From: Gonapodya sp. JEL0774
Lineage: Eukaryota
Direction: 5' to 3'
Length of the DNA stretch: 23,598 nt
NCBI GenBank assembly: GCA_027604505.1
Contig: JADIIX010000095.1
Span: 62,001 to 85,598, forward strand
The notes under the pieces are model-generated. The model was not told the DNA's origin. It did not search any database and was given only the letters and a program-made list of their open reading frames with translations. The translations under genes and the position numbers were made by a program. Shown piece by piece: positions 582-23,598 of this stretch. Within the stretch, counting starts at the first letter, position 1. Each line of letters starts with the position of its first letter.

Positions 582-3500
582 ATGGCTGATGACGCTATCA
601 GAAACCTCGGTGAGGCTCCTGCTCTTCCTCTTCTTAATTACCTTGGAAAGCTCTTACCCTTCCATGAACGATTTCTGTCGTAGAATCTCAAAAGAGATGG
701 CTCAACATGGCCATGGACGACGCTCGGGACTTCAGTGGTATCGAACAGAAAATTCAAAAGTTCAGGGCTACTCTCGACTCATCAATGAGCGTTCTTGCTG
801 GTCATCCCTATGTTGCGTCCGCGCGACAGTATCTGGTTGAACAGGAGGTAATCTCGCTGATTGCGTTTTGCTGATTTCAGATTACGGAAACCGAAACCTC
901 TTCTGCCTCTTTTACTCAAGAATTTATTCATTTTCAAGCAAGCAACCGAGCAAGCAGAAAGGGAAATATCCAAAGCCAAGAATTTGCTCCGGTACGCGGA
1001 GATGTCGATGCCTCAAGTGAGTGAGCAGAGATACTGGTATTGCTTTCGATTGTTAAGCATTACGTTTTTTGCCTAAGCAAATGGATCGTGCCAAGCAACA
1101 AGTACAAGAAGCTATTGCGGTCGCCACTGGGCTCTTGTCCAACCCTCAATACTCTGGCCTTCCTGTGGTGCACGCATTCGCGCCGGCCTTCCTCGCTGGG
1201 CCAGCCAAGGAAATGGACATCAAAGTTAACTCGGCGGCCATCCTTCAAGAGGCTGAAGACAAGATTCGAGTCGCTAAAAACAACTTACGATATGTGCAAG
1301 GACAGCTGGACAGCTCCGTGAGTAGTCCTGGGTCCTCTAAAATCGTGTTCCGTTATTATTCATTCGTGGCTCTATTAGAACGCAGAGGGGGCACAGAGAT
1401 ATCTGAAGGCCGCTCTCGATGCAGCGCAACCCCTTCGTGCTGACCCCAAGTTTCTCATCGTACCGGAAGTTGTCGCTTTCTTGAACGATTTGGCAGTCTC
1501 AGAATCCGAGCTGGGTGCCAAAATCAAACATGTTGGGCTCATTTCAGAGTATCAATCCGCTGTGTACCCTGCGCGGAACCTTGAGCGCCAAATGGGTAAG
1601 TGAACACCATGGAGCCCTCGCGACAATCTCCTGAACTTCTAAACCTGATTCGTTATCAACCGCTTGCAAGAAAATCTCAAAACAATGGACGACGTCACGT
1701 ACATGGGCAAAGATCGTGCCCTAAGCACACTCTCTCAGCTCAAAAAGACCATCGACGATTTCACAGCTCGTTTTGGATCTCTGGACGTCGCTGCACCCAC
1801 CATTCTTTCCATGCGTTCGGCTGCCGAGAAAGCAGAACAGCTACTGGGTGTTGGCCAACGAGCTCCTGAACCACAGGTCGTCGTACGCGCTCCTCCTCCC
1901 CAAGCCAAGCCAGAGCCGCAAATCGTTGTCCCAGCGAGTAGTCAGTCGCGCACGCAGGAGCCGCAGGCGACGCGTGCACCCACTGGACCTCCCATTCAGC
2001 AGCGTAAGTTGTGTGCTTATTGTTTTAAGTTGATGCGACTCTGACTGGGACGGTGCTACATACATTGGTACTTTCTAGTGCCACCTGCGCCGGCGGCCGC
2101 TCCATCGGCGGACATTACCCCTCCTCCAATGGGTCTTTCTGTAGAGAAAGCACAGTCTCTCGTTGAGGCTTCCCGCTCTGAGATTCGATGGGCAAAGTAT
2201 TATGCGAACGAGAACGACTCTAACCGACTGGTGGAGAGGCTCGGCAAGGCGAAAACGATTCTGGCGCCTCTTCTTGCCGAGTCCGCGTCTCCATCTGACT
2301 GGGAGAGAGATAGAACCATTGTCGAGTTTGTGACTACTTTCCGCCAGGACAGCGTGGAACTTGAGGCTAAAGCGGCCGAACTCACTTTCGCGTCCGAGTT
2401 CGACGACGATTCTCGAAAAATTGGCAGACTCATTTCTAATTTACAAAATTACACAGATGCCTACCATTTGGATCGGAGCGGATCCGGCACCGCACTCAAA
2501 TACGTGGATGATCTCTTGAAGTACGTCGAGAACATCAAGAAAAAGTTTGGTACTCAGAGATTGCAAGTTCAGGAGGAATTAAAACGTGCGACGGATGCTA
2601 TCGAGGAAGGCTACAGAAAAGTTGAGGCGTATGAAAAGAACATTTCCGACACCCGTGAGTGTTCCCTCCGAAATAGTTGCTGTGGAATGAACACCGTCTC
2701 AATTAACGAGTAATTCCTATTAGAACGCAACAAACGAACCCGCTTGCTTCCCAAGTTTGAGGAATATTATTCATCTTTGGATGCTCCAGTTCGTGACGCT
2801 CTGTCTTCCCATCAATGTACGGTCTCGGTTGGGCATGGGAAAGCTGTAGCACAGCCATACGTGCTTTGTAACAGCTCTGGATGTCACGACTTTGTTCTTT
2901 GCGGTGCTTGTTACGAAAAGTGCCACCGGGATGGCACCTTCAAGTCCCACCCGGCAGAGTTTGTCTTCCGTGTGGAGTTCGGTGACGCTGCTTGCGATTG
3001 CGGACAAAGCTCAAGGGTGAGTTACGTTACGGACTCCTCATCTCTACTCCATTTCAAGTTTGTTCACACTGACTATGTTTTGCAGTGCCACGCGCAAAGC
3101 AACGTTTCACCCAAATCTTGGCCCGCACCGCCCCCGGGAACAGACGCAGACGTTTCTGACATTCCTGCATCCCAGGACCGAAACATTGTAGTTGCCGTTC
3201 AACCTGCGGTCGACAAACCGGCTGAGCTCTACGATGTTTCGAGCGTCAGGATGCCGTACGGCACACGTATGGTCCTCATCGGACTAAACCACATCGCCAA
3301 CGAATTTAACAAGGCAGGTTCTTGCCCACTGCACTGCCATGTTGACGTACATCTGACACGGAACGCCAACCATGTATTTCATTAGAGTTTCAACGAGGGC
3401 CACACTTTAATCTTGACGACTTCTCAGGCGACGGGGTCCGTCTCGTACTATTCAGTGAACTCTGCGATTTCTAGTTGCATTTCAAAGTTGGAGCACGAAG

Positions 3501-5018
3501 CATCCTTGTTCAGAAACGTCAATGAAGGTAAATTTGATTTCTCAATTTCCTTCTGCAGGAACCTCGCTGAAAAGATTGTTCGTTGCAGTGCTTGAAGAAT
3601 ATCCAAACCCCATCTTAGCCGGCATCGCGAAAGATTTGCAGACGCGCCTCAAATCTCTTGCGATCAACAAGAAGGTCCGCTGGCCTAAGATCGTAGCCGA
3701 TATGGAGAATAACGAGAAAGTGAAGGAGACACTCACCCAGATGAATCGCTACATCGACAATGCGAATGCGGAGACAAACTTGGGCAGGAAGAGAGATGCC
3801 TACAAGGAATTGATTCAGTATGGCCAAATTCGCGTCGACAACGGTGACGATGTGGATTCAGTCACAACTCTATTGGCGGAAGGCCGGAAGCTGTTCCGAG
3901 AAACGACCGAGGCGTACATTCACGAACTTTCCGGAGCCATGTTTTCCCCCGATTGGAATTACATGAATAATTTGGCTGCCGAGATCGAGACCCTCGGTCA
4001 AGATCAAGAACACGCCTCGAGATTGCGGGAATGGATCACCAAAGCCAAAGTGGACAGAGAGCAGAAAGAGGCTGACAAGAAGGAAGAGGATGCGAAGAGA
4101 ATGGCCGAGTACGCAGAGATCAAGAAGAAAGAGGCCGAGGAGCTGCAAAAGAAGCTCAAGGCTATCTACCTTGATCCGTACACTGGTGGGAGGGTGACTG
4201 TAGCCGGAGAGACATGGGAGTACTACTCCAACGGTAAGTGATCTGCGCAAAGGTGCTAGTTTCTAGCTTGTTATCAGTTTTTGGACTGAAAATACTGTTC
4301 ATGCCCTGCACACGTTTTCAGGAACATTAAAGGGACCCCGTTGTGAAATTCGCTTCACTGGCTCCGAGATCCTCCCTGTCTCTGGTCTCCCCAATAGCGG
4401 CTTCTGGAATGGAGAGCGGTTTTCATACTATTGCAACTGGAAGACGATTGTTACTCACAGCTGGAACGATTCCAACAGAACTTTCTCACCAACATTCACC
4501 GAGGCGCTGCTGCCAGTGACGTGGAGATGGGACGGAGAGGAGCTGATTCCTACAGACGAGATACACCGGAAGATGATCGCAAATGTGAAAGGATCTGTTC
4601 CCTTGCCGGTCGTTTTGTTCGCCAGCATGTTTGGTTGGCTCCAAGGTGAGGTCCACTTCGGATGGTCATCCGTCACAGAGGTTCAAAATTCAATGACCTC
4701 TTTTGATCACGCCACACGCCAGACATCCTCCCCCGCATTAACGGCGAACGACTCTGTCGCTCAACACTCTGGGACAATGACGCCGCCCGCCACCGTCACG
4801 GCAAAATATGCCGCAACTGCCGTGCCCACGGTACATCACACACATGTCCGATCTGCGTTGCCAAGATCTACTTCCCGCGCGTTCCAGCAAAGACGTGTGG
4901 TAGTGGATCGTGTCCGGATAGGTGTGTGAGGTGCCAAGGTTTGAGTGATTTGGTGCCGGCGTACTTGTGCGATGACTGCGGGAGGAACTTCGGAAAGAAC
5001 TGTGTGTATTGGAGATGA
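582..5018 (+). CDS. About 1187-aa multidomain protein: helical repeats, Pro-rich linker, UBR-box-like Zn finger, charged helix, Trp/Gly beta-rich segment, C-terminal PHF5A/Rds3-like Zn knot
   Basis: Hand-spliced 13 exons with consistent phases and no internal stop: 582-609, 684-847, 939-1016, 1078-1317, 1379-1595, 1671-2003, 2079-2654, 2724-3016, 3086-3313, 3386-3527, 3589-4233, 4322-4645, 4723-5018 (sum 3564 nt). Donors are gtgag/gtaag/gtaat/gtaaa type, plus one probable GC donor at 3314. Starts MADDAIRNLESQKRW and ends NCVYWR*. Confidence 0.85.
2816..3088 (+). other. UBR-box-like zinc finger domain within the 582-5018 gene
   Basis: CTVSVGHGKAVAQPYVLCNSSGCHDFVLCGACYEKCH...H...AACDCGQSSR|C matches the UBR-box pattern C..Q-x-x-Y-x-C..C..C-x2-C-x3-CH..H..CDCG..C seen in UBR4/UBR7/FBXO11-type boxes. 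Confidence 0.75.
4755..5015 (+). other. PHF5A/Rds3-like 12-Cys zinc-knot domain (last exon of the 582-5018 gene)
   Basis: LCRSTLWDNDAARHRHGKICRNCRAHGTSHTCPICVAKIYFPRVPAKTCGSGSCPDRCVRCQGLSDLVPAYLCDDCGRNFGKNCVYWR has 1+2+2+2+2+2+1 Cys, with G(R/K)xC, RCVxC and AYxC motifs as in PHF5A. Confidence 0.7.
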
Positions 5019-6147
5019 TTCAAGCGATCTAGAATGAAGCACCGATGACTCTGGCAGAATATCGGAGAAGCTTTGCATTTTTCAGGGAACAAACGAGCAA
5101 ATTTGAAGAAGCAGGGACTGGGTGTCGTGTGTAGCAAGCTTTTGAAGAATAATATAAGACATATCTAAGATCTTCAAAGTCGGTGTTTCTTGGATGGTTG
5201 AAAGAGTGCAAATGAAGGAAGGTTAGTCCTGAGGACCAGTGCGAACGAACGGGGGAGGGGGGGAAGGTTCCACGGAGAGGAACCAAAAATAATTCAAGGA
5301 AACAATGTCCTTACATATAATCAATTATGAACGGGAATATTACATGTGATATGTGTGCTACGGTGTAAAGAAATTGCCAGGGCATCCGGGATTACCTCGC
5401 AGGGAATCTCTGTTTTTCCGCGAAGACGCGCTTCATATGTGAAGTTTGAGAGGAGGAAAGTGTACACGTGACAGCAATCGGAATATGCAAAATATTGAAG
5501 GAAGTAGCGATTGATGGTGCGCGGAACTCACGACGGGAAGGAAGAGAAATCAAGTCGGCGAAGTTTTTTTTTTCAGGGTCAAAGAGGAATTTCGGAACCC
5601 TCACCGACGAGAGAACAGTTTCTCTCTTTGTCAAATCCAGTGTGGTTGCTTTGAAAAATGAAATTTAATTCTACTCGTAGAAAGAAGTGATTCCGCGAAA
5701 CTTGAGTTTGTGGCGTTTGCTATACGTAAGGAGTTGGTTGGACGAGAAAACAAGAGCACACCGAACGCTCGGAGAGGTCCGAGATCGTGTTTCATAACAT
5801 AGAAATAGTCCGACGATTTTAATAAAAATCTTGCAGTGTACCGGTGTCTAAAAAGTACTTTGAACACAAGTATCCAGTGAGAATGAGGCCTACCAGCCAT
5901 TCTTGACCCCATTGAAACAGCACCAGCGTCTCAGCTGGACTTATCTGTCTTGGTGGTCGTCTCGAAGAGCGCTGTGGCGTCGGTGCATTTTGCTTGAGGC
6001 GGTGTGTGTTGGTGGGAGAGTTTGAGTGAGGATCCAATTAAACCCCCGTCACCACATCACGTGGCGTTTGAACTCGGGAAACTCCGGAACCATTTGATGC
6101 AGTTGCACGTCGAAAATCCACTCAACAGCAGTTTCGGGCGCCCGCCG

Positions 6148-8540
6148 ATGGCTTTCGAAGGCGATGGAATGCGCGTAGCAGGGACTTTTGGACTGATGGG
6201 TGGGGAGAGCCTCAACGATCCGGCTCGCTCGACGGGTTCGGGCTCATTGCAGCGTCGGCGAGCAGCGCCCGCGCCGCTCATAACAAGTGGACACGTTACT
6301 GGGCAGAGCGCGGAATTTTTCCGCGGGAACCAGAACTCGGGGGAGGAGTCTGCGGCCCGAGGCGAGAGGAGCAGGGGTGAGAGTATGGTCGACAGAGGGC
6401 ACGGTGGACGCGAGCCGAACAATGGGAACGCAGGAAATGTTGGAAACGGGAGCGATCCGTACAGCTTGAGCGCGAACTCGAGTACGCTCCACTCGCAGCG
6501 ATACACGGGAGACGCTTTGAGAAATCAACACCAGCAAACCCCAAACTATCAAGGAATGGCTGCGCTGTCGGAGAACGGAAGTCCTCTCCCATATGCTGCT
6601 CATTCCGCGGAGCCCATCAATCAGCACTCCCCGTCAGCCTCTTCGCTGGCTTCCCTGCCAACACCTCTCACAGCACCAGCGATTTCTCCCCATGGTTTGC
6701 CCTTCTCATATGGAACTAGCACAGATCCGCAACCCATTCAACAACGCGCCCACTCTGGCTACCCATCATCTTCATCATCTTCGGTCAGTGTTATTCAAGG
6801 CCAAGGACCACCTTTGCTCTGTCTTACCTTTGAAAACCACCCTCAACTTGACACCCCCGTGTCTGCGAATCCACAGCGAATGAGCGATCTACAGCCCCAC
6901 CACCCCATGGAAGACATTACGACCTCTCAGGATCTTCTTAGATTGCAGATGCTTCAAAACGCTCACTATGGACAAGGGCCAAAGGTACCGGGTGTTGGAC
7001 TCGGAGCTGCTGATATGTGGAACAATGGCACTGGTATTCCTGGAGCTCACATCAACCAGTTTGGGAGAACGGAAGGTGTTGGTGCTACGAAAATCTCAAA
7101 TGACATGAATGACCCACCAACCCCTCAGTGGGGTCCAACTTCGTTCCCTGGAAGGAACGGAACCTCGACGGGGCCGACCACCTCAAGCCCCCATCGCACT
7201 GCTGGGCAGGGCGAAGCCACTACCACTGCAACTGGCTCAGGTACTCCCAACCCTCCCCCTAACAACCTCGGCGGAGGAGCCACCTTCACTCAATCGTATA
7301 GTGGAACTCCATTTCCTTCCGGGGGTTTCAACCCAGCCGCTGCAATTACGAATTCACAGCAAGCTCCAACCACACACTCCCCCTCCCGACCTCACCCTTC
7401 TGACTGGGACCCAACTCCCCCCGTTAAACGTCAGCGCTCAACTCCTACATACACTTCCTACTCTCAAATGCCTTCTTCGCACCACCGTCCGTCTTACGCT
7501 CCCTCGCCAGCCCCTGTTACTGCGCTTGCAGCTAGGCTGGAGCCCTATGTGGGCGTTTGGGCGTTTGATGTGAGTCGGTCCGACAGGGTAGAGGATGTTA
7601 TGGTCGCGATGGGGTTTCCTTGGATGAGACGGTCGATTTTGGCGAGAATGAGGGTGAAGATATGGAATGGAGATGTGAGTGAACGGTGGGGGTTGTGGAC
7701 GACGTTTTTGGGGCTTCCCATATTGACCGGAAACCCTTGGGCACCGCGGTCACATCAGCTTGATGGCACTGCTACAATTCTGGTTCAGACTCTTATTGGT
7801 ACGTACTTACATGTGGGACTGGGGGAATGGTTTCGTGGCCACGTTGGCTTGAGGAAGGAAGAGGAACGGTTGTCCACAGCCCAGTTCACCTCTGGATGAT
7901 CGCCAAATGAATCAGCGTGGCCACCTTGGCATGAAGAAGGAAGTAGAGCCGATTAGCACGGGTTGCCCACAGACCTACGTCACCACTGGATGATCGCCAA
8001 ATGAATCGGACGGGGGACCGTGGAAGGTCACGTCAGTGGCGAAATTGCCCCGACTCATCACCTTTCAGACCAGGCCCGATCAAATTCTCGAACACCGAGA
8101 GCATCCAAAGGACCTTACTGTCGCGGTGCTCTTAGTGCATCTATGTCTGTCCGTCCTGCGTTAGTCCTCTGGCACATTTTGTCGTGGTGCTGATCATGAT
8201 ATCCCTCTGTCACCATCCAATTCTCCCAGACACACATCCTCTCGACACTACCACCCATATCCTCGACGGCATACCTCGCCTTAACCCTCGCCTCCCCTCA
8301 CTCACCTCGCGATCATTTCTCGATCCTGCCACGAACTGTGTCATGGTTGAGTCCAGAAACACCGCGACGGGGCGCCAGTATGAGTGTCGGGCAGAGTGGG
8401 CCTTGTCCAGACTGGTACAGGGAACGGGTCAGGGAATAGGACAGCAAGGAGTGGCGATGGAACGAAGGATAACTGTAAGCGGTGGGGCAGGAGACGGTGG
8501 CCTGCGACAATATAGGGTTGGATATGCAAAGATTGGTTAA
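6148..8540 (+). CDS. About 625-aa protein: long Ser/Pro/Gly/Gln-rich disordered region plus C-terminal FABP/lipocalin (calycin)-like domain
   Basis: ATG in ccgccgATGG context at 6148 (an in-frame ATG at 6097 is an alternative). Exons 6148-7674, 7759-7798 and 8230-8540 join in frame (WNGD|LDGTATILVQTLI D THPLDTTTHILDG...YAKIG*). YVGVWAFDVSRSDRVEDVMVAMGFPWMRR resembles the FABP N-terminal G-x-W...S(D/E)xxxDxMxAxG signature. Confidence 0.75.
7834..8009. repeat. Diverged tandem duplication (about 82 and 94 bp units) inside intron 2 of the FABP-like gene
   Basis: cgtggccacgttggcttgaggaaggaag...tcacctctggatgatcgccaaatgaatc (7834-7915) versus cgtggccaccttggcatgaagaaggaag...tcaccactggatgatcgccaaatgaatc (7916-8009). 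Confidence 0.8.
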
Positions 8541-13790: not shown

Positions 13791-15331
13791 ATTTTCACAA
13801 GTGAGCAGTGACAGGGACCCAAGAGTTTGGCAGTGATGTAAAACTAGCGAGGTCGCAGTGAGGGAACAGGGAGACACCATCATATCATGTGGCGAACAGC
13901 TGTTCCGAAAGCGTGCAGGTGATGCAATTGTCACGGAAGACGGGACAGCACGTACATACTCGTATCAGACTTTGTCAGAGATCGGTCAGAAGCGTCAGTT
14001 TGGTCCCGTCACTCCTTGTTGTGTGTCACCGAGCACAAAACCTTGAGTATTTCTATCTTCCCAGCGTGTTCTCCTGTAGCTTTAAGCTTTACATAACGTA
14101 TGATTGGTGTATTATCACCAATGGATTTGTAAGGGGTACTGAGAGGGGGCGCGCAAGCTTTTGACATTATGTCCCTTGTCCGTTCTCTCCTTCACCACCC
14201 AAAACAGTCGCCACCATGATATCAATCTAGTTCCTTCCAATGACAAGAGACAAATTTTGGTTGGCGCGTGTTTGGAGCTGCGAGCTCGACACTTCCTCAA
14301 AGGCACAAATTACAAACGCAACGCCAACGTGAGCTCCCACGGTCGCAAGGTAGGACAAAGAGTTTAGTTTTGCGATGATGCACCGATTTGGATGGCATTT
14401 TTGCGTTTTACGTTGGGGCCGTCGCGTATCCCTCGACCGCAGAGACCCCACATAAAGATGCATGATGAGGAGACATCACCGCAACGCTTCAATGGAATGA
14501 ACGGAGTGCACGACAAGCATCGAGTGATAGACAGTGATATTAATGAAGCCTACATAATGATACACGTGCCAATCCACTGGGTACGACGAATCACTTCTCC
14601 CTCCCTCCTCCTCCATTTGCAATCTAAAGGTGATGGCACTGCTAAGCAACGACGAGAGAGAAACGAAGCAAACTAAGCATGTCAAGACGAGAGGGGCTCC
14701 ATCCGCAGCCGGATAGTGAGCTGCAACGCGAGTCGTGAAACCACCGGCTCTCAGACCACGCCACAGGAAGGCTGGGCCCATGTGCTCCATAAGCAAACGC
14801 AGCAACTTACTCATCCTTTCCATTGCGACTCACTCGACGAGTTGTTCATCCACGCCCGCCGTCCCCACGGTGGCTCGACTTATCCCACAGGACACATCGC
14901 TCTCGGTCGCGGAAAGCGCCTCGTGGAGACCTGTACAATGCACGACGTGTGCCTGTGTCACGATGTGTGTCTGTGTTTGCGAGCACGGGTTGGCAGACTC
15001 GGAAGGGGTCGATGCGAGTTTAGATGTGGAAATTGAAACTCAAACCTACCTGCACAGTTCTCTAGTCCAAAGCATTGCTGTGGTCGTAGGCAACCGCAAA
15101 GGCACTACTGCGCATCTTCCAAAACTTTACACTGAAAATTGCATATTTGAGATCAAAGAAAAAGGTATGAAATACATACAACGTTACATCAGAGGTGTTT
15201 TGTAACCGTGCCCAGGACGGTCTTCACATGTATGTTTTGTGCATGACCAGAACAGACATTATGGAATGGGAATCGGTAATGATTGACAATGGTGATTTCA
15301 GCTTATAGGTTTCGAAAGGTATCACTCCAGT

Positions 15332-18300
15332 TCAGTTGTCGTCCAGATCCATATCTCCGACAACCCGACCCGTAGCAAGGGCCGCCAATACCGGAGCTAC
15401 ATATTTGCCGGGTATTCGAATGCCTATACGGAGAGAAACAACCCCCATGAACCCACACGTCAGCGCAGACACACAAAAAAAAACCCGAGGAAAGGAGCCG
15501 CAACGCGGACGGGCAGGGCATCGCGCGCCACTCACCAATTATCCGCCGGTCGTTCTCTGTGATAGTTGCGCGGACGATCTTGATGCGGTCATTGCACCCC
15601 GACGCGACGAGAGCATCTTCGACTCTGGTCCAGACTATGAAACACGAACAACAAAGTGATATCGATAGTTGGTGTGGGACTCCCAGCCTGTAAATGACAG
15701 ATATGACTGTGCCAGATTGAGAACACGTACCTGGAACGACAGCTCCAGCGAGAATATGGTACTCGCGGATTCGCTTCCCGATAAAACATTCTCCCCCAGT
15801 TCTGACCGTCTTACAGAACCCATCCCGGGAAATCATGGCGTGCACACACCGGGTGGCACTCCCTTCGAATTGACGATTCCTAGCAGCATAAAAACGCAAA
15901 CGAAAAACATTTGTGTGTTGATAGGTGAATGTGTTTGAGCGAGCGGAGCCGGAATGAAAAGGTGCGCAAGGACACCCCGCCTCACCAAAGCTTCTCTGCC
16001 TTGGCCATCAGTTTCTCCCCAGTGACTCGTGTGTGAGTGCGCGTGAGATCATTCCAGAACGCGATGCTCAAGACCTCTCCGAGATGGGGTCTATATTAAA
16101 GATGTCAAAGAAGGGGAGTGAGAATTACGTCCAATAAACCATTCCGTTGCCAGCCCCTTTCCAAAGGTTTGTGAGTGAGCCTCACTTGTAAACTCGCGCA
16201 TGAACCCCTGATCTGCCCGCATCTTTAGCCAGAATACAAGATTCTCCGTTCGATGAAATGTAGAACCCGTTCTTCGGATGATCATTTTGGCAGTCGTTGA
16301 ATATTTCAAGGGCGTGTTCAAAACGGAGACCTTTTTACAGGTGATAACCATTGTGCTCTTCAAATCTTGTGGAATCGCACACGAGATGGACAAACCTCTG
16401 TCTACTCGGAGTGAAAAGTGATGCGTCCTTATCTTTGAGAACGCGTCTTCAAAGACCGTTGCAGGGTCATTTGCAAGCTCTACCGTGCAGTGCATGCCAC
16501 CAATGTCCTCTTTTCGACACAAAAGAGAGTGGGTTGAGAGCTCATTTGGAAAATGAAACACACTGTTCACCGCTCTTACCTATTCCGGCGTCCAGTTGGC
16601 CATTCCTGCGAGCTTCGTCGAGCACAATCTGATATGAAGAAATCAATATTGTGATGAGCACGAACAAAGGTAGAGTCTCAGGAAGAGGGATTCTCACCTT
16701 CAGGTGACGTAAAAAGTAATCGAAGATTTTGTTTTGTAGAGTAACTGGATGGATTCCAAGCAATCTTGTATACAACCGACCATTGACACCAATACGATAA
16801 GTGAAGGGAAATCCACGCCGCCTTGCTTACCGATTCAGAAACTTCTTGACCTTTGCCTCGTCGGTGCCGTTGTCTGCCAGATCCATAGCCTCGAAAGCGG
16901 ATCTCACTTGACTGAAGAAACCACTGGGGTCAACTCCCTCGGGCAAGAAATCTGGCGGAACCACATTTTGGGATCGACCATCGACGCTGGCATGTAACTG
17001 ATGCGAGATTGGGGGTGATTGTCGATTGATCAGACTTACTGGAGATTTGATATTATTCTTGAATGAGCGAGTGTATTACTCACGGCTTCCAAAGCCGACT
17101 TGCCCCATTTCGTCTCAAAATTAAAATCTGACAGGGAAATTCCATCTGCAGCTCGCCGATCCCCCTTGGTTAGCGCACCTAGAGATTCCAGTCGCTTTGC
17201 TACCTACACCCAAGGAAAGCAGGATGGTGAATTACTCGGAAAGATTCCGCCACTGGGCAACGCAATTATTATTGATCCACTTACAGCACTTGCAAATCTC
17301 ATTTCCCCTCCGATGTCCGATATGACCAAAACGTACTCCGGAGCGGAGCTTTGATTTGAGCGGTGTGTTCTCCCGAGCTGTTGGATTGCCTTGTCGGCAC
17401 TCCATGCAAGCTCAATAGTAATGTGAACTCGGCGGCGTTGATTATTTACACGGCGATCCGCTTCAACATTATAACACTGTCAGTGTACGTGCAAGAAATT
17501 GAGGGCAAGCAAATCTACCTTGTAGCGAGATTCCGGCGCTCGCAGCGTCACTGATGATTGCAACATGCTTTCGACCAGATTGGAAGGCATCCCGTTCTAG
17601 AAGATTGACATCCTTCTTTGCAATACCACCAGTATTTCTCGCCTCGTACGTGAACCTGGAAGGGTCGTATGGATCTACAACAGCTCGCATGGAACGGCCA
17701 GTGAGCTATTGAAAAGTTGCTAAAAGTGAAAGTCGATAAGTGATGATAACTCGCGGCAGACTTGCCTCGGCAACCTCTGAAGGTCCCCCAAGGGAAGTGA
17801 TGAGAGAATCAAGCGGATTGTTGGGAAGTGCCAGGAGGTCAATTTTCTGTTGATTGAGATCCGTCAAATGAGCCACCAGTCGTGTATGACATCAATCGGT
17901 TTGCAGCGAAGAACTTACTGATTTCAGGCCCAGGGCAATTGCTGGAACTGTTTCCTTGGAGAATGAAACAAACCCGAGTAGCTGACTGGACATTGCGCTG
18001 AAGTTGAGTTCGTCGGGTGCGCTTCCAATCGTTAAACCGAACTGAGCGCTAATACTCGAGGTCGATAGACATTCTTCATTAGTAGTGATTGCGGACAACC
18101 ACGGCGCCTGTGGCAAAAGGTGTCTGTTGTAGTCGTCCGTAGTGCCCGTACTTCACAGCAAGAATGAGTAGAGGGAACAATTAGAGATGACCTTCGATAT
18201 TCCAATATTCTCAGTACTTACGGTAATGTTGAAATCCCTCTGGAAGACAGATTATTTACACTCTTGGCTTCATCGAAGGGAGAAGAATTGTACTTTGAAG

Positions 18301-21300
18301 GCACCAATTTTTGCACCGATACGACGTTGGGATTCCCAACATTGACTTCACACATAGCATTCTCGAATCTGGTCGGGGCTTTGGAAACTGGTGCATCTTT
18401 ACCCCCTTTCGGTGGATTTTCACCTTCATCTGTATCCGAGCCAATGATCGTGGAACGTTTGGCCCTCTTCGGCATCTGTCGTGACACACCGTTGCGAACC
18501 CCTCTTCCAAAAAAGCTCTCTTCGGAGAATTCGTCATCGTCGCTGTCCATCATTACCGGCTGATCATTATCGCTCCTCTTCAATCGTCGGTGGCTTTCGA
18601 CATTCATCTGAAAGTCTGACTCTGTGTCCGAATTTTCAGCATTTTTGTAGTTGGCCGCCGCACGACGACTGCGTCCAGTTCTAGGATCGTACTTAAGCTG
18701 TGGAGGTGAAGCAAGCGTACATTGACAAGTGGAGATAAGCGATTGTCCGTTGCGATAAAAAATGCGACGAAGTAATCACCTTTGCGGGCGCAATACGACG
18801 GTCTCCAACACGCATTTTGCGCTTCCTCAGTCTGACATTTCCATGTTCGTCTTCCGACGCAATCTCCATTTCACAATCATCACTTGCAACGTCTTTAGAG
18901 TCGTCACTCTCATCCTCGAGTTCTGATTCGGAAGCAAGAGTATTGGACTTGCGTGCCCGGACAGACCGCACGTTCCCTACTTTGATCCCAAAGCATTTGA
19001 GTGCAAAGTAGTCCACTAAGCCTTTTGCAACCTCGCGTGGAGCAGACACCTAAGGACAGTGGTGATTACATGGAGCAGGTATCGGACTGGGACTTCCCGA
19101 ATACCCACTAGGTCATCCAAATCGTCACCATCGTCTTCAAGACGTTCCGCGGTGCGGGCTTCCCCAGTCCCTTGAAGACCAATAACCACAGACTTGAGGC
19201 ATGGCCGTGAAAATGATCAGTTAATAATCGCTTTGGGTATTATACGAGGCAAATACTGAAACACCTTGCCCTCTCGAAGAGCGCATTTCGCGAGCTCGAT
19301 AGTTTTTGGCACCTTCGCGGAGATGCAGAGGTATTTAAAAAATCGTTGCTTAAGCGACATGACCACACGGTGTGAATAACTATGATAATTAGGACGAGCA
19401 CCACAAGAGATCCACTCACGAAACATCCCCAATAATATCTCCACAGAGCTGCCCTCTTCTTGCCATCCAAAGGCTCCGTTGCATTTGTCACCCAGGATCC
19501 CAAGATAATTTTGATATCTCCCCATAGCTTCGCTGCATCATCATAAGAAATTGTTGTTTGATCAAGCTCAAATTTGGCGATTTCAAAAGATGCTTCAGAG
19601 TACGAGAGAGTACGAGAGAGGTACATTCCCATAGCTTTCATATCGCATGCAACACACTCCATTGCACCAGCCCCTCGTTGGCTAACCGCACTTAAGAACG
19701 ATCCGAAATTCGGAAACGGCGCTTTTGTGGAAAAGAATTAGAAAATGAGGCACATCAAGAAGCGACACATCGAAGATTACACACTATTCTCCCCCCAAAG
19801 ACCGAGCCTGACCATGTACGCCATGTTTCGGGGCTCCGAAGCTCCAGTAGCACTAACGTATAGCACACGGGCATTGGGTAGCTTCTCCTGAAATGGGATG
19901 TAAGAATGGGAGGTAAGACTTGATGCACGAGAATTGTGCTTTCATTACACCCGCACTGAAGAGCGGAGACACAAACCTGTATTTCGAGGATAGCCTTACC
20001 CGTTTGGGTTCCTTTCTGTTCTGAGACCCCCATATCGCCTTTCTTTTTGCCGGGTGGAACGAGGTTCTTTCCCTTATGCGACTCATCAAATATAAGAAGA
20101 CCTTCAAATGCTTCACCGCCTGGACGGATTTTGAGTCACTTAAAATGGGCATGCTCGATTCTCCAGGGCCAACTCACCACAATACTCAACAATTTGTCCA
20201 ATTCTTGTGTCGGTAACGCGACGAACCTTCTGAGCGTGCCCGATGAGAGTGGCGTAAGTCGAGAAAAGAACACCTCGCCCAAAGGGTAAACTGCCAAAAG
20301 GTTGCTGGGGGATGTTTGGAGAGGCGATTTGCAATCGGAGCTCGCACTTCCATCTCACTGAAAAGACACGACTCACGCCGGTCAAGCTGTAAAGCTTCAC
20401 GTCCCCTGCCCCGACATCTTTCAAGTCACGATGGGCGTCCTCCACCAGGTCAGCTGATATAGAGAACCAAACAGCTCGATCTCGACGGCTCGGGGGAGAA
20501 GCCCAAAGTGTCGACGAAGGAGATGCAGCAGCGTGCAATTGATTCTCGAGTACGCTGTGATTCAGGTTGAAAGTAATGACAAGTTGAAGATTCGACTTGC
20601 AATCGTATCGACAACTGTACACACATGCCAGCTATGGACCGTCCTTTACCCACACCCGCACCCTTAGCAAAGCATGAGTTGAGGTTACCAGACGGGATCA
20701 TCAAGATCATGAGAAAACTGGGCAGGAACATGACGTGGTCACGGTACTCACGTCTCCAATAAAGAAGCCCGCGCGTTCTCTCCCATTGGGAAGCATCATG
20801 TTATGTCGCTGAGAAGCGTAGACAAGATTCTCGAGTTGGATCTAGCGAAAAGTATGCGATGTGTTCTTATTGAACGCACTAGCCTTCATATTCTTCTTAA
20901 CTCAAATCACCTTGCTCATTGCTCCTTCTTCTATAATTTTTTTCCCTCTTGGATCCGTCAGTAATTTGGGTTCATAGGTGATTGGAGGCAAGGAACAGGC
21001 AGCGAGAGAGGCGGCTTCGGGAGAACGACATCCATTTCAACTTTTACCAGTGGCCAACATTGAAAAACTCCACAAAGCACCCACCTTCTACCAACGGATC
21101 TGGATGATCTTTTCCGTATGGCAACGTACTCTCGTAAGTTGCGAACCTTGCCTTCCTCGCTTCCTCGTCCTCGTCTTCGTTCACCCGATCGGCACTGTCC
21201 TCATCGAGAATGTCCGATGCAGAGGTTGTGGCGGGCACTGGATTTGCAACAGGTAATCCAGTAGTTTGCGGAGCAGTCGTGTCAGGAGGATTCGGCATAC

Positions 21301-22636
21301 GTCGATGGTTTGCGTACTTGCGGGGCAGGTTGGTGTTGCCCCAAAGTGTTTTCACATTGCCTAAATTTGAGGTCGGGCGAGGCACGGGGTGCGCTGAAGT
21401 AGTAGTCGCGGGAAGTGTCGGAGGAGCAGGTGTTGTGGAGAACGCCTGGCGATCGGAGGGCGCAGATGGAGGAGGCAGAGATGTGCTTGCCAATGCGCTT
21501 GCGCGGACAAAACTGGACCCCTGCAAGGGTATAGGCGAAACTCCTTTCGTCGTACGCGCATTTGGTGTCGAAGATTGAGATGGTTCGGGACGAAGATTTG
21601 GAGCGACTGTTTGGGGCAGTCCGGAGGATAAAGAGACTTTGTGGGCCAACGATTTGCTTGAGGGTTTGTTTTGCTGAGGGTTGATATTAGTGACAGTGTC
21701 ATCCTCTACCACAATGATTGGTAGATCTGCGGTGGGGCCGGCGGGGATTTTGCTGGAAGACGAATCACTTCCCGAGAGCGAGCTCGTCAATGGCACTTCT
21801 GAAATACGATCAGAGTGTGCCGGTGATTTGTTCTGTGGAGTGGAGTTCGGAGGGTTGCAGCTCTCTGTTGAGAGTATACTGGTGGTCGGTGATTCTTCGA
21901 CAACTCTACTGTCTGTTCCGTTGGTGGGTTTGGTTGAGGTTTGGCCTGCAGGGTTGTCTATCGAAAGCGTGTTGGTAGAGGCCAGATTTCCCATGTTACT
22001 CGTCTCCACCACTGGTCGAGTCGAAGTGGTGTTATTCCTGGCAGCATCTGTGGTTTCTGCAGGAGGCGGGTCGACACGCACAGATTTCTGGACTACCGGC
22101 GGGGAGATCGACGCAGGAACTCTGTCACTCGTGAAGGAGCTTTTCAACAGATTTTCAGGAATCTCCGCGGTTTCGGCTGCGATTCCTCGTTTCGCCGTCT
22201 GTGTCGGCCTCCTGTTGACTATCTGCTCGTGCGGCGTCAACGGGCGCCTTCTATCCCCAATGAGCGAAGAGTTGGGCGGTGATGAGCGCGGAGTTTTGGA
22301 GAAGTACGAGAAAAGAGTGCCGTCCCGAAGCTTGGACGAGTCACCAGAGAAAGGTGAAGAGCTCGACACAGTTTTGTAGTTGCCTCGACCAGAAACATCT
22401 CTCGAACGGTCATCGATACGCTGTACAATATCAATTTCATCGTCGTCGTCGTCCATTGTGAGGTCAATGGGTTCTCCCCGGTACGGTTGACGTTCGCCCG
22501 GAGCAGTTCCGGACGAGGACGGCGCATTCTGCCGACCAGGGACAGACGGTTTCGGTGGTTCGACTCGGCGTGGTTGAGGTTTCTTCAAGAGCGGGGTACG
22601 GGATCCAGGACGTGATCCGTGCTGGCGGCTGCTCAT
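15332..22636 (-). CDS. SBNO: Strawberry notch (SBNO1/2, Sno, plant FGT1-like) SF2 helicase-like nuclear protein with a long disordered N-terminus
   Basis: Spliced motifs in the expected order: [39 protein letters not shown] (Walker A, exon 20662-20625), [46 protein letters not shown] (Walker B, about 20076-20087), [181 protein letters not shown], ending GIRIPGKYV...DLDDN* (stop at 15332). The start at ATG 22636 (MSSRQH) is inferred. Confidence 0.95.
17706..17765 (-). other. Non-canonical GC-AG intron (60 nt) in SBNO
   Basis: GAG|gcaagt...ttttcaatag|CTC ACT GGC CGT restores the conserved EVAE-LTGR motif. Confidence 0.8.
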
Positions 22637-22667
22637 GAATGGTGGAGTGTCGAGGATGGATCGGTAC

Positions 22668-22738
22668 CTGACAATCAGACGGTTGATTCGACTCGTCTTG
22701 AGTCCCTGGTGACGGCGAGGTGACAGCTGAGAACTCAC
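22668..22738 (-). other. Probable 5'-UTR intron of SBNO
   Basis: Minus strand gtgagt...ctgattgtcag, 71 nt long, ending about 30 nt upstream of the ATG at 22636. Confidence 0.4.
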
Positions 22739-23598
22739 AGTAAGCCTGATGCTTGTTCGGAGATCTTGTATCCGCACACGAGGTGGCCGCCTTCACTTGG
22801 TCTTGTTTCGGAGATTCACGCGGAAGTGGGTACGAAAGAAGGTTCGAATCAGTAGGAGCAGAGGAAATCTTCAATCGCTTGAGCGCAATCTGCAATTCAG
22901 ATATACGGCAGGTTGGGCGAACTCAGAGTGAAAGTGAAAAGCCAACTATTGGATTTGGGCGTTTGCGAAGACAGACGCGGAATGGACCACCAGCTCTGAA
23001 CAGACGCACAATGTACAGTGCATACAAGAAAAAGTGTTGGCCCGCAAAACATACAGGCCCACAGATGAAGTCATGATCAAAGATTTTGCTCCTTAGCGGT
23101 CACATTCCTTGGCTGTGTAATTATGTATGTCCACCGTCGAGGTCTCCACAGCGACTCGCACCCGGTCTTTCTCACCGTCACTACAAGTAAAGCGGCCTCA
23201 ACATGTGAACACGCCGGCCAAGGGGTGGGATGAGTGTTTGCTCCTGCCTCGGTGGATGAACCAACGGGCGGCCGGGGAGCTGGCAATGGGGAGTGGGGCA
23301 GTGGGGAATTCCCGTATCGACGACGTCCCAATCAGTCACAATCGACAGGGACATGTGTTTGTGTATGTGTGTGGATTTTGACATTGTGTAAAAAACTTTT
23401 GGTGTTGTGTTGTTTATGTATTTATTGGGGATTGGGCACGGGCACACCACCAAGGAAGACCACAACGACCCGATCAAACGGTTCCAAATGTCGTGAACAA
23501 AAATCACACATACCCGGCAAGTACCCGGCAAGCACAACCACTGTTCCACCGTCCACAGTTCACCGTCCTCCGTCCACCATCCCCCGGCCCCCCCCCCC

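What the first reader, a model, noticed from the sequence alone, without database searches (positions are those of the whole stretch)
582..5018. Unrecognised architecture: helical repeats + UBR-box + charged helix + beta-rich segment + PHF5-like knot
Seen: one continuous 13-exon frame with consistent phases links a UBR-box-like finger (2816-3088) to a PHF5-like finger. Established: UBR boxes occur in UBR1/2/3 (RING), UBR4, UBR5 (HECT), FBXO11 (F-box) and UBR7 (PHD). I see no RING, HECT, F-box or PHD here. Inference: this could be a new class of UBR-box protein, for example an adaptor coupling N-degron or peptide recognition to a PHF5-like interaction surface. The UBR-box plus second Zn finger layout loosely parallels UBR7.
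Basis: partly seen in the sequence, partly recalled or inferred. Interest (0 to 1): 0.75.

Follow-up and report, generated by a model that had tools for sequence, protein, structure and literature searches.

The report
Divergent UBR-box scaffold protein gene
This chytrid-fungus gene encodes a large uncharacterised protein with a diverged copy of the zinc finger that ubiquitin ligases use to read protein ends, but no recognisable ligase domain; it likely acts as a recognition scaffold, which is untested.

Summary
Window 582-5018 (+) is one 13-exon gene of Gonapodya sp. JEL0774. The deposited model (HDU93_009948, 1147 aa) reads both Cys-rich regions in other frames and so lacks them. Three junctions need small corrections, giving about 1193 aa.

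The middle finger is a diverged UBR box of the UBR4/FBXO11 type. A four-sequence family profile hits only UBR boxes in the PDB (8 of 8, best 2.3e-5). The amoebozoan relative alone hits UBR4 at 8e-8, and the chytrid fingers link to it by hhalign (95.5%, E 1.6e-8). All 11 zinc ligands are present. However, the chytrid fingers alone match no UBR box and no Pfam zf-UBR, and two aromatic pocket residues are Ala.

The "PHF5-like" label is not supported. The tail is a family-specific 12-Cys module that follows a confidently predicted beta-meander.

No RING, HECT, F-box or PHD domain reached its Pfam cut-off; only weak PHD and RING-type matches to the tail. The same domain order occurs in three other chytrids and in one complete amoebozoan transcript. 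I found no description in print. Function is inferred only.

The parts
582..5018 (+). Whole coding region, 13 exons. Best-supported exons: 582-609, 684-847, 921-1016 (reader: 939), 1078-1317, 1379-1595, 1671-2003, 2079-2654, 2724-3016, 3086-3313 (reader: -3346), 3386-3527, 3589-4233 (reader: 3559-), 4322-4645, 4723-5018.
   Evidence: Relatives cover the whole length.
582..1861 (+). N-terminal block of about 78-aa repeat units, inferred to be helical. Each has an L-R-[YW] helix start followed by a conserved 'A..YL..A....PL..DP.F...PEV..FL'-like stretch. Two clear copies lie here, at aa 81 and 160, plus one degenerate copy that I read by eye.
   Evidence: Four-residue pattern scan plus inspection of the flanks in the window model and in P0003, P0013 and P0014. 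P0003, P0004 and P0005 align over aa 2-580. No Pfam or PDB match. Helical state not modelled.
1862..2122 (+). Pro/Gln/Ala-rich linker, spanning intron 6.
   Evidence: Translation; coordinates.
2123..2803 (+). Second repeat block (one further clear repeat unit, at aa 389) leading into the finger.
   Evidence: Collinear BLASTP match of aa 376-644 to P0012 108-373 (E 6.5e-7).
2816..3091 (+). Diverged UBR box, UBR4/FBXO11 type. Ten ligands lie in exon 8 (2816-3016) and the last Cys (followed by a His) lies at the start of exon 9 (3086-3091); intron 8 (3017-3085) lies inside. Pattern: C-x16-C-x4-C-x5-C-x2-C-x3-C-H-x7-H-x14-C-D-C-G-x4-C-H.
   Evidence: Ligand roles from PMC10687169.
3092..3184 (+). 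Pro-rich linker after the finger.
3185..3998 (+). Conserved middle domain of unknown family. It contains the two uncertain junctions: intron 9 at 3314/3347-3385 and intron 10 at 3528-3558/3588.
   Evidence: Matches P0002, P0007 and P0012. No Pfam family reached its cut-off.
3999..4169 (+). Charged helix: 57 aa, 54% D/E/K/R.
   Evidence: The equivalent stretch of P0009 is one long helix in the model (H15-65). Whether it is a single helix or a coiled coil was not tested.
4170..4645 (+). Beta-meander domain, starting at the conserved 'PYTGG' motif. It spans the end of exon 11 and exon 12, with intron 11 (4234-4321) inside, and ends in a hydrophobic helix (4594-4645).
   Evidence: Alignments. AlphaFold2 model of the relative P0009 has about 12 strands plus a helix, block-mean pLDDT 74-91. 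Fold searches found no clear relative.
4723..5015 (+). C-terminal 12-Cys module, predicted to bind zinc. Cys codons start at 4755, 4809, 4818, 4845, 4854, 4896, 4911, 4923, 4932, 4968, 4977 and 5001.
   Evidence: Eleven Cys are invariant in 5 aligned tails. G. prolifera keeps 9 of the 12. The fold is unresolved.

Best explanation
Window 582-5018 is one 13-exon gene for a roughly 1190-1210 aa protein of a small conserved eukaryotic family. The protein carries a diverged UBR4-type UBR box and is likely a non-catalytic recognition scaffold that would couple binding of a peptide end or short motif to partners docked on its conserved C-terminal module.

Shown:
- the gene structure, apart from three junction details;
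- the family, found in four chytrid species, one amoebozoan transcript and several environmental proteins;
- the domain order: repeat blocks, UBR box, middle domain, charged helix, beta-meander, 12-Cys tail;
- homology of the finger to UBR boxes through the amoebozoan member;
- all 11 zinc-ligand positions of UBR4, plus the Asp of the C-D-C-G motif that in UBR4 holds the substrate's N-terminal amine.

Inferred:
- the finger binds three zinc ions and a peptide;
- its specificity differs from UBR4, because the two aromatic contact residues (UBR4 F1671 and F1713) are Ala here;
- the repeats and the charged helix act as spacers;
- the beta-meander and 12-Cys tail, the most widely conserved part of the family, is the partner-binding or effector end.
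For: Single gene.
- The window splices to one open frame.
- R. rosea P0003 joins the N-terminal repeats to the finger. G. prolifera P0002 joins the finger to the tail.
- The Clastostelium Trinity ORF P0012 (marked complete, 1019 aa) holds everything in one transcript.
- Three collinear BLASTP matches link the window model to P0012: E 2e-5, 6.5e-7 and 5.8e-26.
- The two-gene models in three chytrid genomes break at different points.

Frames.

UBR box.
- The family profile A2 against the PDB gave 8 matches at E<=10, and all 8 are UBR boxes (UBR4 8j9r_A at 2.3e-5; FBXO11 7yrb_A at 7.8e-4).
- P0012 alone matches UBR4 at 8.1e-8. The top 10 of its 14 matches are UBR boxes.
- The P0012 finger piece matches Pfam zf-UBR at 6.8e-6.
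- hhalign of the chytrid-only profile against the whole of P0012 picks its finger (288-379) with probability 95.5% and E 1.6e-8.
- Ligand and pocket mapping comes from the printed UBR4 alignment and PMC10687169 (passages).

No ligase domain: no RING, HECT, F-box or PHD reached its cut-off. Only the UBR-box part of UBR4 matches.

C-terminal module: it is shared by 9 of the 14 non-self hits (P0002, P0006, P0008, P0009, P0010, P0012-P0015).
Against: - The window's own finger gives no zf-UBR match in Pfam at E<=10.
- The chytrid-only profile finds no UBR box in the PDB (0 of 4 matches, best TniQ at 0.46). G. prolifera P0002 alone finds none either (0 of 4). The UBR assignment for this gene therefore rests on a transitive link through one amoebozoan sequence.
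- Even P0012 is below Pfam's gathering score (19.9 vs 25.2 bits).
- The AlphaFold2 model of the finger was unusable (mean pLDDT 40.9), so the fold is unverified.
- The pocket looks degenerate. F1671 and F1713 equivalents are Ala/Ala here. The amine-binding Asp is Ser in G. prolifera. FBXO11's UBR box does not bind N-degrons (PMC5606531, abstract in the listing).
- A codon-usage score trained on 940 codons of agreed exons favoured the deposited frames: -0.34 vs -0.22 per codon in the finger, and -0.44 vs -0.04 in the tail. The training exons are probably poor in Cys and His codons (my inference, not counted), which would bias this score.
- There is no RNA evidence and no functional data of any kind.
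Confidence: 0.5

Rival explanations
1. The protein is a self-contained atypical ubiquitin ligase. The C-terminal 12-Cys module would be an unrecognised RING-like, cross-braced E2-docking domain. This would parallel UBR4, whose catalytic 'hemiRING' module long went unrecognised.
For: The tail gives weak, sub-threshold matches to cross-braced zinc fingers: C1_1 in 4 of 5 members (best 6.2e-5), FYVE_2 in 4 of 5 (0.0075), PHD in 3 of 5, and FANCL_C, zf-RING_6 and zf-RING_2 in 1 member each. XIAP RING chains appear at E about 1. UBR4's E3 module is an atypical hemiRING plus a UZI subdomain (PMC10873205, abstract in the listing). UBR boxes usually sit in ligases.
Against: No RING-type family reaches its cut-off. 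The tail profile does not match the full-length UBR4 chains in the PDB at E<=10. The middle Cys quartet is incomplete in G. prolifera (9 of 12 Cys) and partly missing in Zopfochytrium. The fold is unresolved.
Confidence: 0.2
2. The finger is a UBR-derived structural zinc module that no longer reads peptide ends. The protein would be a structural or cytoskeletal scaffold with no link to ubiquitin.
For: The aromatic pocket residues are lost in all three chytrid sequences, and the amine-binding Asp is lost in G. prolifera. FBXO11's UBR box does not bind N-degrons (PMC5606531, abstract). Most of the protein is repeats and a charged helix. P0010 and P0015 show no counterpart of the UBR box by eye yet keep the C-terminal module.
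Against: The amoebozoan member keeps Phe, Tyr and Asp at the three pocket positions. All 11 ligands are conserved in the window. The Asp is kept in 3 of the 4 sequences.
Confidence: 0.2
3. One reading: a UBR box coupled to a true PHF5-type knotted zinc domain that offers a PHF5-like interaction surface.
For: Pfam PHF5 is the top, though weak, match of the window's tail (E 0.012, 16.2 bits, tail 24-87 to profile 18-77 of 104). From recall, not from a call: PHF5A also has one Cys, five CxxC pairs and a final Cys at similar spacing.
Against: The score is below the cut-off (26.7 bits). Only 1 of 5 family tails matches PHF5, while C1_1 and FYVE_2 match 4 of 5. No PHF5A or Rds3 chain is among the 28 PDB matches at E<=10 or the 31 matches of the wider profile. 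PHF5 is a small stand-alone spliceosome subunit, not a C-terminal domain.
Confidence: 0.05
4. The locus is two or more separate genes and the long frame is a modelling artefact.
For: Three chytrid genomes annotate the locus as two adjacent genes. No RNA run was available.
Against: The break points differ in each species. Each break is bridged by a single model in another species (P0003, P0002) or by the complete Clastostelium transcript. The window has no in-frame stop across any proposed junction.
Confidence: 0.05

Closest known systems
UBR box of UBR4 / p600 (solved: 8j9r, 8j9q; full length 9hxw, 9nwd, 9qws)
   Same: It is the best sequence match of the family profile (2.3e-5) and of P0012 (8.1e-8). 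Both have 16 residues between the first two Cys and the same opening motif after the first Cys. The ligand set is the same: 2 Cys + 2 His, plus 7 Cys, with a final Cys rather than His ('subfamily 2', PMC10687169). The Asp of C-D-C-G is kept.
   Different: The second Cys pair is C-x4-C, not C-x2-C. The His pair is H-x7-H, not H-x2-H. F1671, F1713 and K1708 are Ala, Ala and Glu here. Nothing outside the box matches UBR4. The protein is about 1200 aa, not 5183 aa, and no hemiRING was detected.
UBR box of FBXO11 / UBR6 (7yrb, 5vmd)
   Same: It is the second family matched (7.8e-4 and 0.34). It is a UBR box reported not to bind N-degrons (PMC5606531, abstract), which may be the better functional analogy for a degenerate pocket.
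   Different: FBXO11 has an F-box and joins an SCF ligase. No F-box was found here.
UBR7 (UBR box plus PHD finger)
   Same: The layout is a UBR box plus a second Cys-rich zinc module. Three of 5 family tails give weak PHD matches (best E 0.06).
   Different: The PHD matches are far below the cut-off. The tail has 12 Cys and no conserved His. About 450 aa of middle domain, charged helix and beta-meander separate the two modules.
PHF5A / Rds3 (SF3b subunit, knotted three-zinc protein)
   Same: There is a weak Pfam match (E 0.012). The count and spacing of CxxC pairs are similar (recalled).
   Different: The match is below the cut-off, is not shared by relatives, and has no PDB counterpart. The context also differs: a domain of a large protein rather than a 110-aa spliceosome subunit.
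Other UBR-box proteins without a recognised ligase domain
   Same: A UBR4-like box sits in a non-ligase setting. That paper states that in most UBR-box proteins the box is the only domain recognised.
   Different: I did not find this particular domain order (repeats, box, beta-meander, 12-Cys tail) in the passages I read. I did not open that paper's supplementary architecture figure.

Membership tests
UBR box (Pfam zf-UBR, PF02207) | Score at or above Pfam's gathering cut-off (25.2 bits) | tested here: not met
   The window's exon 8, and exons 8-9 read through, give no zf-UBR match at E<=1 or E<=10. Only 1 of 4 family fingers matches (P0012 piece, E 6.8e-6). The whole P0012 scores 19.9 bits.
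UBR box (Pfam zf-UBR, PF02207) | Significant sequence similarity to solved UBR boxes | tested here: met
   Met for the family and by transitive link. Profile A2: 8 of 8 PDB matches are UBR boxes, best 2.3e-5. P0012 alone: 8.1e-8. Chytrid profile to the P0012 finger: probability 95.5%, E 1.6e-8. Not met directly: the chytrid-only profile gave 0 of 4 and P0002 alone 0 of 4.
UBR box (Pfam zf-UBR, PF02207) | Eleven zinc ligands in UBR order: one 2Cys+2His site and seven Cys for the binuclear site (subfamily 2) | tested here: met
   Window residues align to UBR4 C1662, C1679, C1682, C1691, C1694, C1698, H1699, H1702, C1714, C1716 and C1724. Two loop-length differences occur. Roles come from PMC10687169.
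UBR box (Pfam zf-UBR, PF02207) | Three-zinc UBR fold | tested here: inconclusive
   The AlphaFold2 model from 4 sequences had mean pLDDT 40.9, with the finger residues 30-97 below 50. No fold search was run on it.
UBR box as N-recognin (UBR1/2/4 type) | Asp of C-D-C-G that binds the substrate's N-terminal amine (UBR4 D1715) | tested here: met
   Asp in the window, R. rosea and Clastostelium; Ser in G. prolifera. Role.
UBR box as N-recognin (UBR1/2/4 type) | Side-chain contacts (UBR4 F1671 and F1713) | tested here: not met
   Ala and Ala in the window; Gly/Val and Pro/Glu in the other chytrids; Phe and Tyr in Clastostelium. Positions read.
UBR box as N-recognin (UBR1/2/4 type) | Binding of N-degron peptides | not testable with these tools
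   This needs recombinant protein and peptide binding assays.
PHF5 (PF03660) | Score at or above the gathering cut-off (26.7 bits), shared by relatives | tested here: not met
   16.2 bits, E 0.012, in the window only; 1 of 5 tails.
PHF5 (PF03660) | Similarity to solved PHF5A/Rds3, and the knotted three-zinc fold | tested here: inconclusive
   No PHF5A or Rds3 chain among the 28 or 31 PDB matches at E<=10. The tail in the P0009 model has block-mean pLDDT 27-41, so the fold is not assessable.
Known UBR-protein classes (RING, HECT, F-box, PHD partners) | A recognised ligase or reader domain beside the UBR box | tested here: not met
   The Pfam scans of 9 window exon translations (E<=1), 12 relatives (E<=0.1) and 5 tails (E<=10) gave no such family at or above its cut-off.

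The most novel reading that the evidence does not exclude
This is an ancient family shared by zoosporic fungi and Amoebozoa. A UBR4-type peptide-end reader is wired, through a rigid repeat and charged-helix arm, to a previously unseen beta-meander plus tri-zinc module. That module would be a new kind of E2- or ubiquitin-handling domain, making the family an undescribed branch of the N-degron system that sequence annotation has missed because gene callers mis-frame both zinc modules.
Probability: 0.12. Interest if true: 0.75.

Novelty: new variant of a known kind. Interest (0 to 1): 0.45.

Why it matters
UBR boxes define the readers of the Arg/N-degron pathway. Their non-ligase settings are barely studied. 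This family gives a compact, conserved and apparently undescribed setting for a UBR4-type box, together with a C-terminal module that has no detectable relatives among solved structures.

The result also shows a practical problem. The deposited model of this gene and the split models in three other chytrid genomes hide both zinc modules or separate them. Proteome-level domain censuses will therefore miss the family.

If the C-terminal module proves catalytic or E2-binding, it would add a new ligase type. If not, the family is a natural case of a UBR box used as a pure recognition or structural module.

Tried and rejected
- RNA evidence: no RNA holder was listed for 582-5018. No whole genome is held for this window.
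- Word-based protein searches found only the gene's own deposited model. The alignment-based search for longer proteins found only P0012 and P0001.
- Metagenome DNA scan. Alignment A1 had no stretch conserved enough to search with. Alignment A4 gave 127 pattern matches and 1 confirmed locus, L001. L001 is a bacterial contig where the match lies antisense to an ABC-transporter ORF, so it is a false positive.
- Structure, finger: mean pLDDT 40.9, unusable.
- Structure, P0009 module: the tail had block-mean pLDDT 27-41, unusable.
- Fold search of the beta domain: Foldseek against the PDB gave no match at E<=0.001 (best 0.019, a designed protein). VIA-align wide gave a best Z of 7.0 (rmsd 3.2-3.4 A, 104-122 residues aligned) to membrane beta-barrels. 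That is within the range the tool calls a common arrangement.
- ESM Atlas: no usable hit for P0012; best score 0.84 for the tail, with no family.
- N-terminal profile against the PDB: best E 0.032, a myosin coiled coil.
- A weak Pfam 'UBR4-like domain' match in P0014 (PF24079, 20.7 bits against a 27 cut-off) was not seen in any of 4 chytrid N-terminal sequences. No UBR4 chain matched the N-terminal profile. I dropped this lead.
- The extra CxxC finger of P0010, P0012 and P0015 looked ZZ-like to me. Pfam gave no ZZ match at E<=0.1. The best PDB match of P0010 there was KCMF1 at E 0.71. Not supported.
- The codon-usage frame test favoured the deposited frames. I judged it biased against Cys- and His-rich frames.
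- No paralogue in the window.
- Earlier notes of this scan: none near this place and none by sequence.
- Print searches. 'UBR box' + 'Chytridiomycota' returned 0 papers. 'UBR-box' + 'lack' + 'E3 ligase domain' + 'protists' (at least 3 of 4 terms) returned 5 papers, none relevant by title or abstract.

Full report
**What is there**

The window comes from Gonapodya sp. JEL0774, a monoblepharid chytrid. The exon 8-9 read-through query is 99% identical, over the part that aligns, to NCBI 'hypothetical protein HDU93_009948' (P0001, 1147 aa).

The deposited model uses the same locus but differs in four places:
- a slightly earlier acceptor for exon 3;
- an extra intron (2816-2876) and a shifted frame through the first Cys/His region;
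- another frame for exon 10;
- no intron 12, so it reads on to 4929.

The deposited model therefore contains neither zinc module.

**Which frames are right**

No RNA run was listed, so I relied on relatives. An exhaustive HMMER search with P0001 found 14 other proteins at E<=0.001. They include:
- G. prolifera KXS22433.1 and KXS22434.1;
- Rhizophlyctis rosea KAJ3031966.1 and KAJ3031967.1;
- Zopfochytrium polystomum KAI9330239.1 and KAI9330240.1;
- a complete Trinity ORF of the amoebozoan Clastostelium recurvatum (P0012, 1019 aa);
- environmental proteins.

The deposited read-through frame matches nothing (best E 5.9). Exons 12 and 13 abut seamlessly in the alignment with relatives.

A codon-usage score trained on agreed exons went the other way, mildly favouring the deposited frames. 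I discount it, because I expect the training exons to be poor in Cys and His codons (not counted).

- Exon 3 starts at 921.
- Intron 9 may be a 72-nt GC-AG intron (3314-3385) rather than a 39-nt one.
- Intron 10 may be 61 nt (3528-3588) rather than 31 nt.

On the last two points G. prolifera and R. rosea disagree. The best composite model is 1193 aa.

**One gene or several**

Three chytrid genomes annotate the locus as two adjacent genes, but the break lies at a different place in each. R. rosea P0003 runs from the N-terminus through the finger. G. prolifera P0002 runs from before the finger to the C-terminus. The Clastostelium transcript carries the whole order. Three collinear BLASTP matches tie the window model to that transcript (E 2e-5, 6.5e-7 and 5.8e-26). 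A single gene is by far the best reading.

**The first finger**

Pfam finds no zf-UBR in the window's finger, only a weak B-box match (E 0.007-0.021). That weak match is what one would expect from the known UBR/B-box/ZZ kinship (PMC4506424, passages).

A profile of the four family fingers matches eight PDB sequences at E<=10. All eight are UBR boxes: six UBR4 sequences (best 2.3e-5) and two FBXO11 (7.8e-4 and 0.34).

As a control, I rebuilt the profile from the three chytrid fingers alone. It finds no UBR box (0 of 4 matches). G. prolifera P0002 alone finds none either (0 of 4). The signal therefore comes through the Clastostelium sequence. That sequence alone matches UBR4 at 8.1e-8, with UBR boxes as its top 10 of 14 matches. 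Its finger piece matches Pfam zf-UBR at E 6.8e-6, although the whole protein stays under the gathering score (19.9 vs 25.2 bits).

The link back to the chytrids is good. hhalign of the chytrid profile against the entire 1019-aa P0012 selects its finger with probability 95.5% and E 1.6e-8.

I then placed the window on the printed UBR4 alignment, whose numbering agrees with the residues named in PMC10687169. All 11 ligand positions are filled, including the final Cys, which is the first codon of exon 9. The Asp of C-D-C-G, which holds the substrate's amine in UBR4, is kept. The two aromatic contacts, F1671 and F1713, are Ala here. They are Phe and Tyr in Clastostelium. G. prolifera has Ser in place of the Asp.

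The AlphaFold2 model of the finger was unusable (mean pLDDT 40.9), so the fold itself is unverified.

**The C-terminal end**

Nine of the 14 relatives share a module made of a conserved 'PYTGG' start, a beta-rich stretch, a hydrophobic helix and a Cys-rich tail.

In the model of the relative P0009, the beta part forms about 12 antiparallel strands plus a helix at block-mean pLDDT 74-91. The tail sits at 27-41. Foldseek found nothing at E<=0.001. VIA-align's best matches, at Z 7.0, are halves of membrane beta-barrels, which means only a generic meander.

The window's tail has 12 Cys, and 11 are invariant among five aligned tails. G. prolifera keeps only 9.

The PHF5 idea rests on one sub-threshold Pfam match (16.2 bits against 26.7). 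That match is seen in 1 of 5 tails, whereas C1_1 and FYVE_2 match 4 of 5. No PHF5A or Rds3 chain appears among the PDB matches. The tail is best described as a family-specific, probably three-zinc module of unresolved fold.

**The rest of the protein**

The N-terminal half holds about 78-aa repeat units that recur many times in P0013 and P0014. No Pfam family reached its cut-off there, and there is no PDB relative. A weak 'UBR4-like domain' match in P0014 was not reproduced. The charged helix is 57 aa and 54% charged. No RING, HECT, F-box or PHD reached its cut-off anywhere. Only the box of UBR4 matches.

**How it most likely works**

Everything in this section is inferred. The finger would bind three zinc ions and a peptide end or short motif, with a specificity unlike UBR4's. 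The repeats and the charged helix would act as spacers. The conserved C-terminal module would dock partners. That makes the protein a recognition scaffold rather than a recognised ligase.

The main rivals are:
- the tail is an unrecognised RING-like E2-docking domain;
- the finger is a structural remnant, as in FBXO11, whose box does not bind N-degrons (PMC5606531, abstract only).

**Novelty**

UBR boxes outside UBR1-7 are already known to be widespread, often as the only recognised domain (PMC4506424). Earlier notes of this scan describe UBR4-like boxes in Naegleria kinases (not checked here). So this is a new variant of a known kind, not a new class of finger.

My two literature searches found no description of this domain order. 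I did not open the supplementary architecture figure of PMC4506424, which could list it.

Noticed in passing
window 2816-3100, 3314-3558 and 4646-4929: The deposited model HDU93_009948 mis-frames both zinc modules and part of the middle domain. The G. prolifera, R. rosea and Zopfochytrium orthologues are each split into two adjacent gene models at different points.
   Followed up: yes
window 3314-3385 and 3528-3588: Two unusual intron candidates. One is either a 39-nt GT-AG or a 72-nt GC-AG intron. The other is either a 31-nt or a 61-nt intron. The other ten introns of the gene are 61-91 nt. RNA data are needed to decide.
   Followed up: partly
window 15303-22792, minus strand: A Strawberry-notch-like helicase gene. 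Pfam AAA_34 matches at 19240-19737 (E 1.2e-16) and 20140-20631 (2.9e-16). A weak SBNO alpha/beta match lies at 15303-16007 (1.4e-4, below the cut-off).
   Followed up: no
window 5998-7899, plus strand: A 633-aa open frame rich in Ser, Pro, Gly and Thr just downstream of the gene, with no Pfam match at E<=0.001. Either a low-complexity protein or non-coding.
   Followed up: no
P0010 (aa 14-72), P0012 (aa 400-445) and P0015 (aa 20-65): These relatives carry an extra CxxC-rich finger that looked ZZ-like to me. In P0010 and P0015 I saw no counterpart of the UBR box. Pfam ZZ was not matched, and the best PDB match was KCMF1 at E 0.71.
   Followed up: partly
P0013 (aa 49-120): One environmental relative has an N-terminal LCCL domain (Pfam E 2.6e-11) ahead of many repeat units and the C-terminal module.
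   Followed up: no
L001 4001-4099: The only locus from the metagenome scan is a bacterial contig. The match is antisense to an ABC-transporter ATPase ORF, so it is a false positive.
   Followed up: yes
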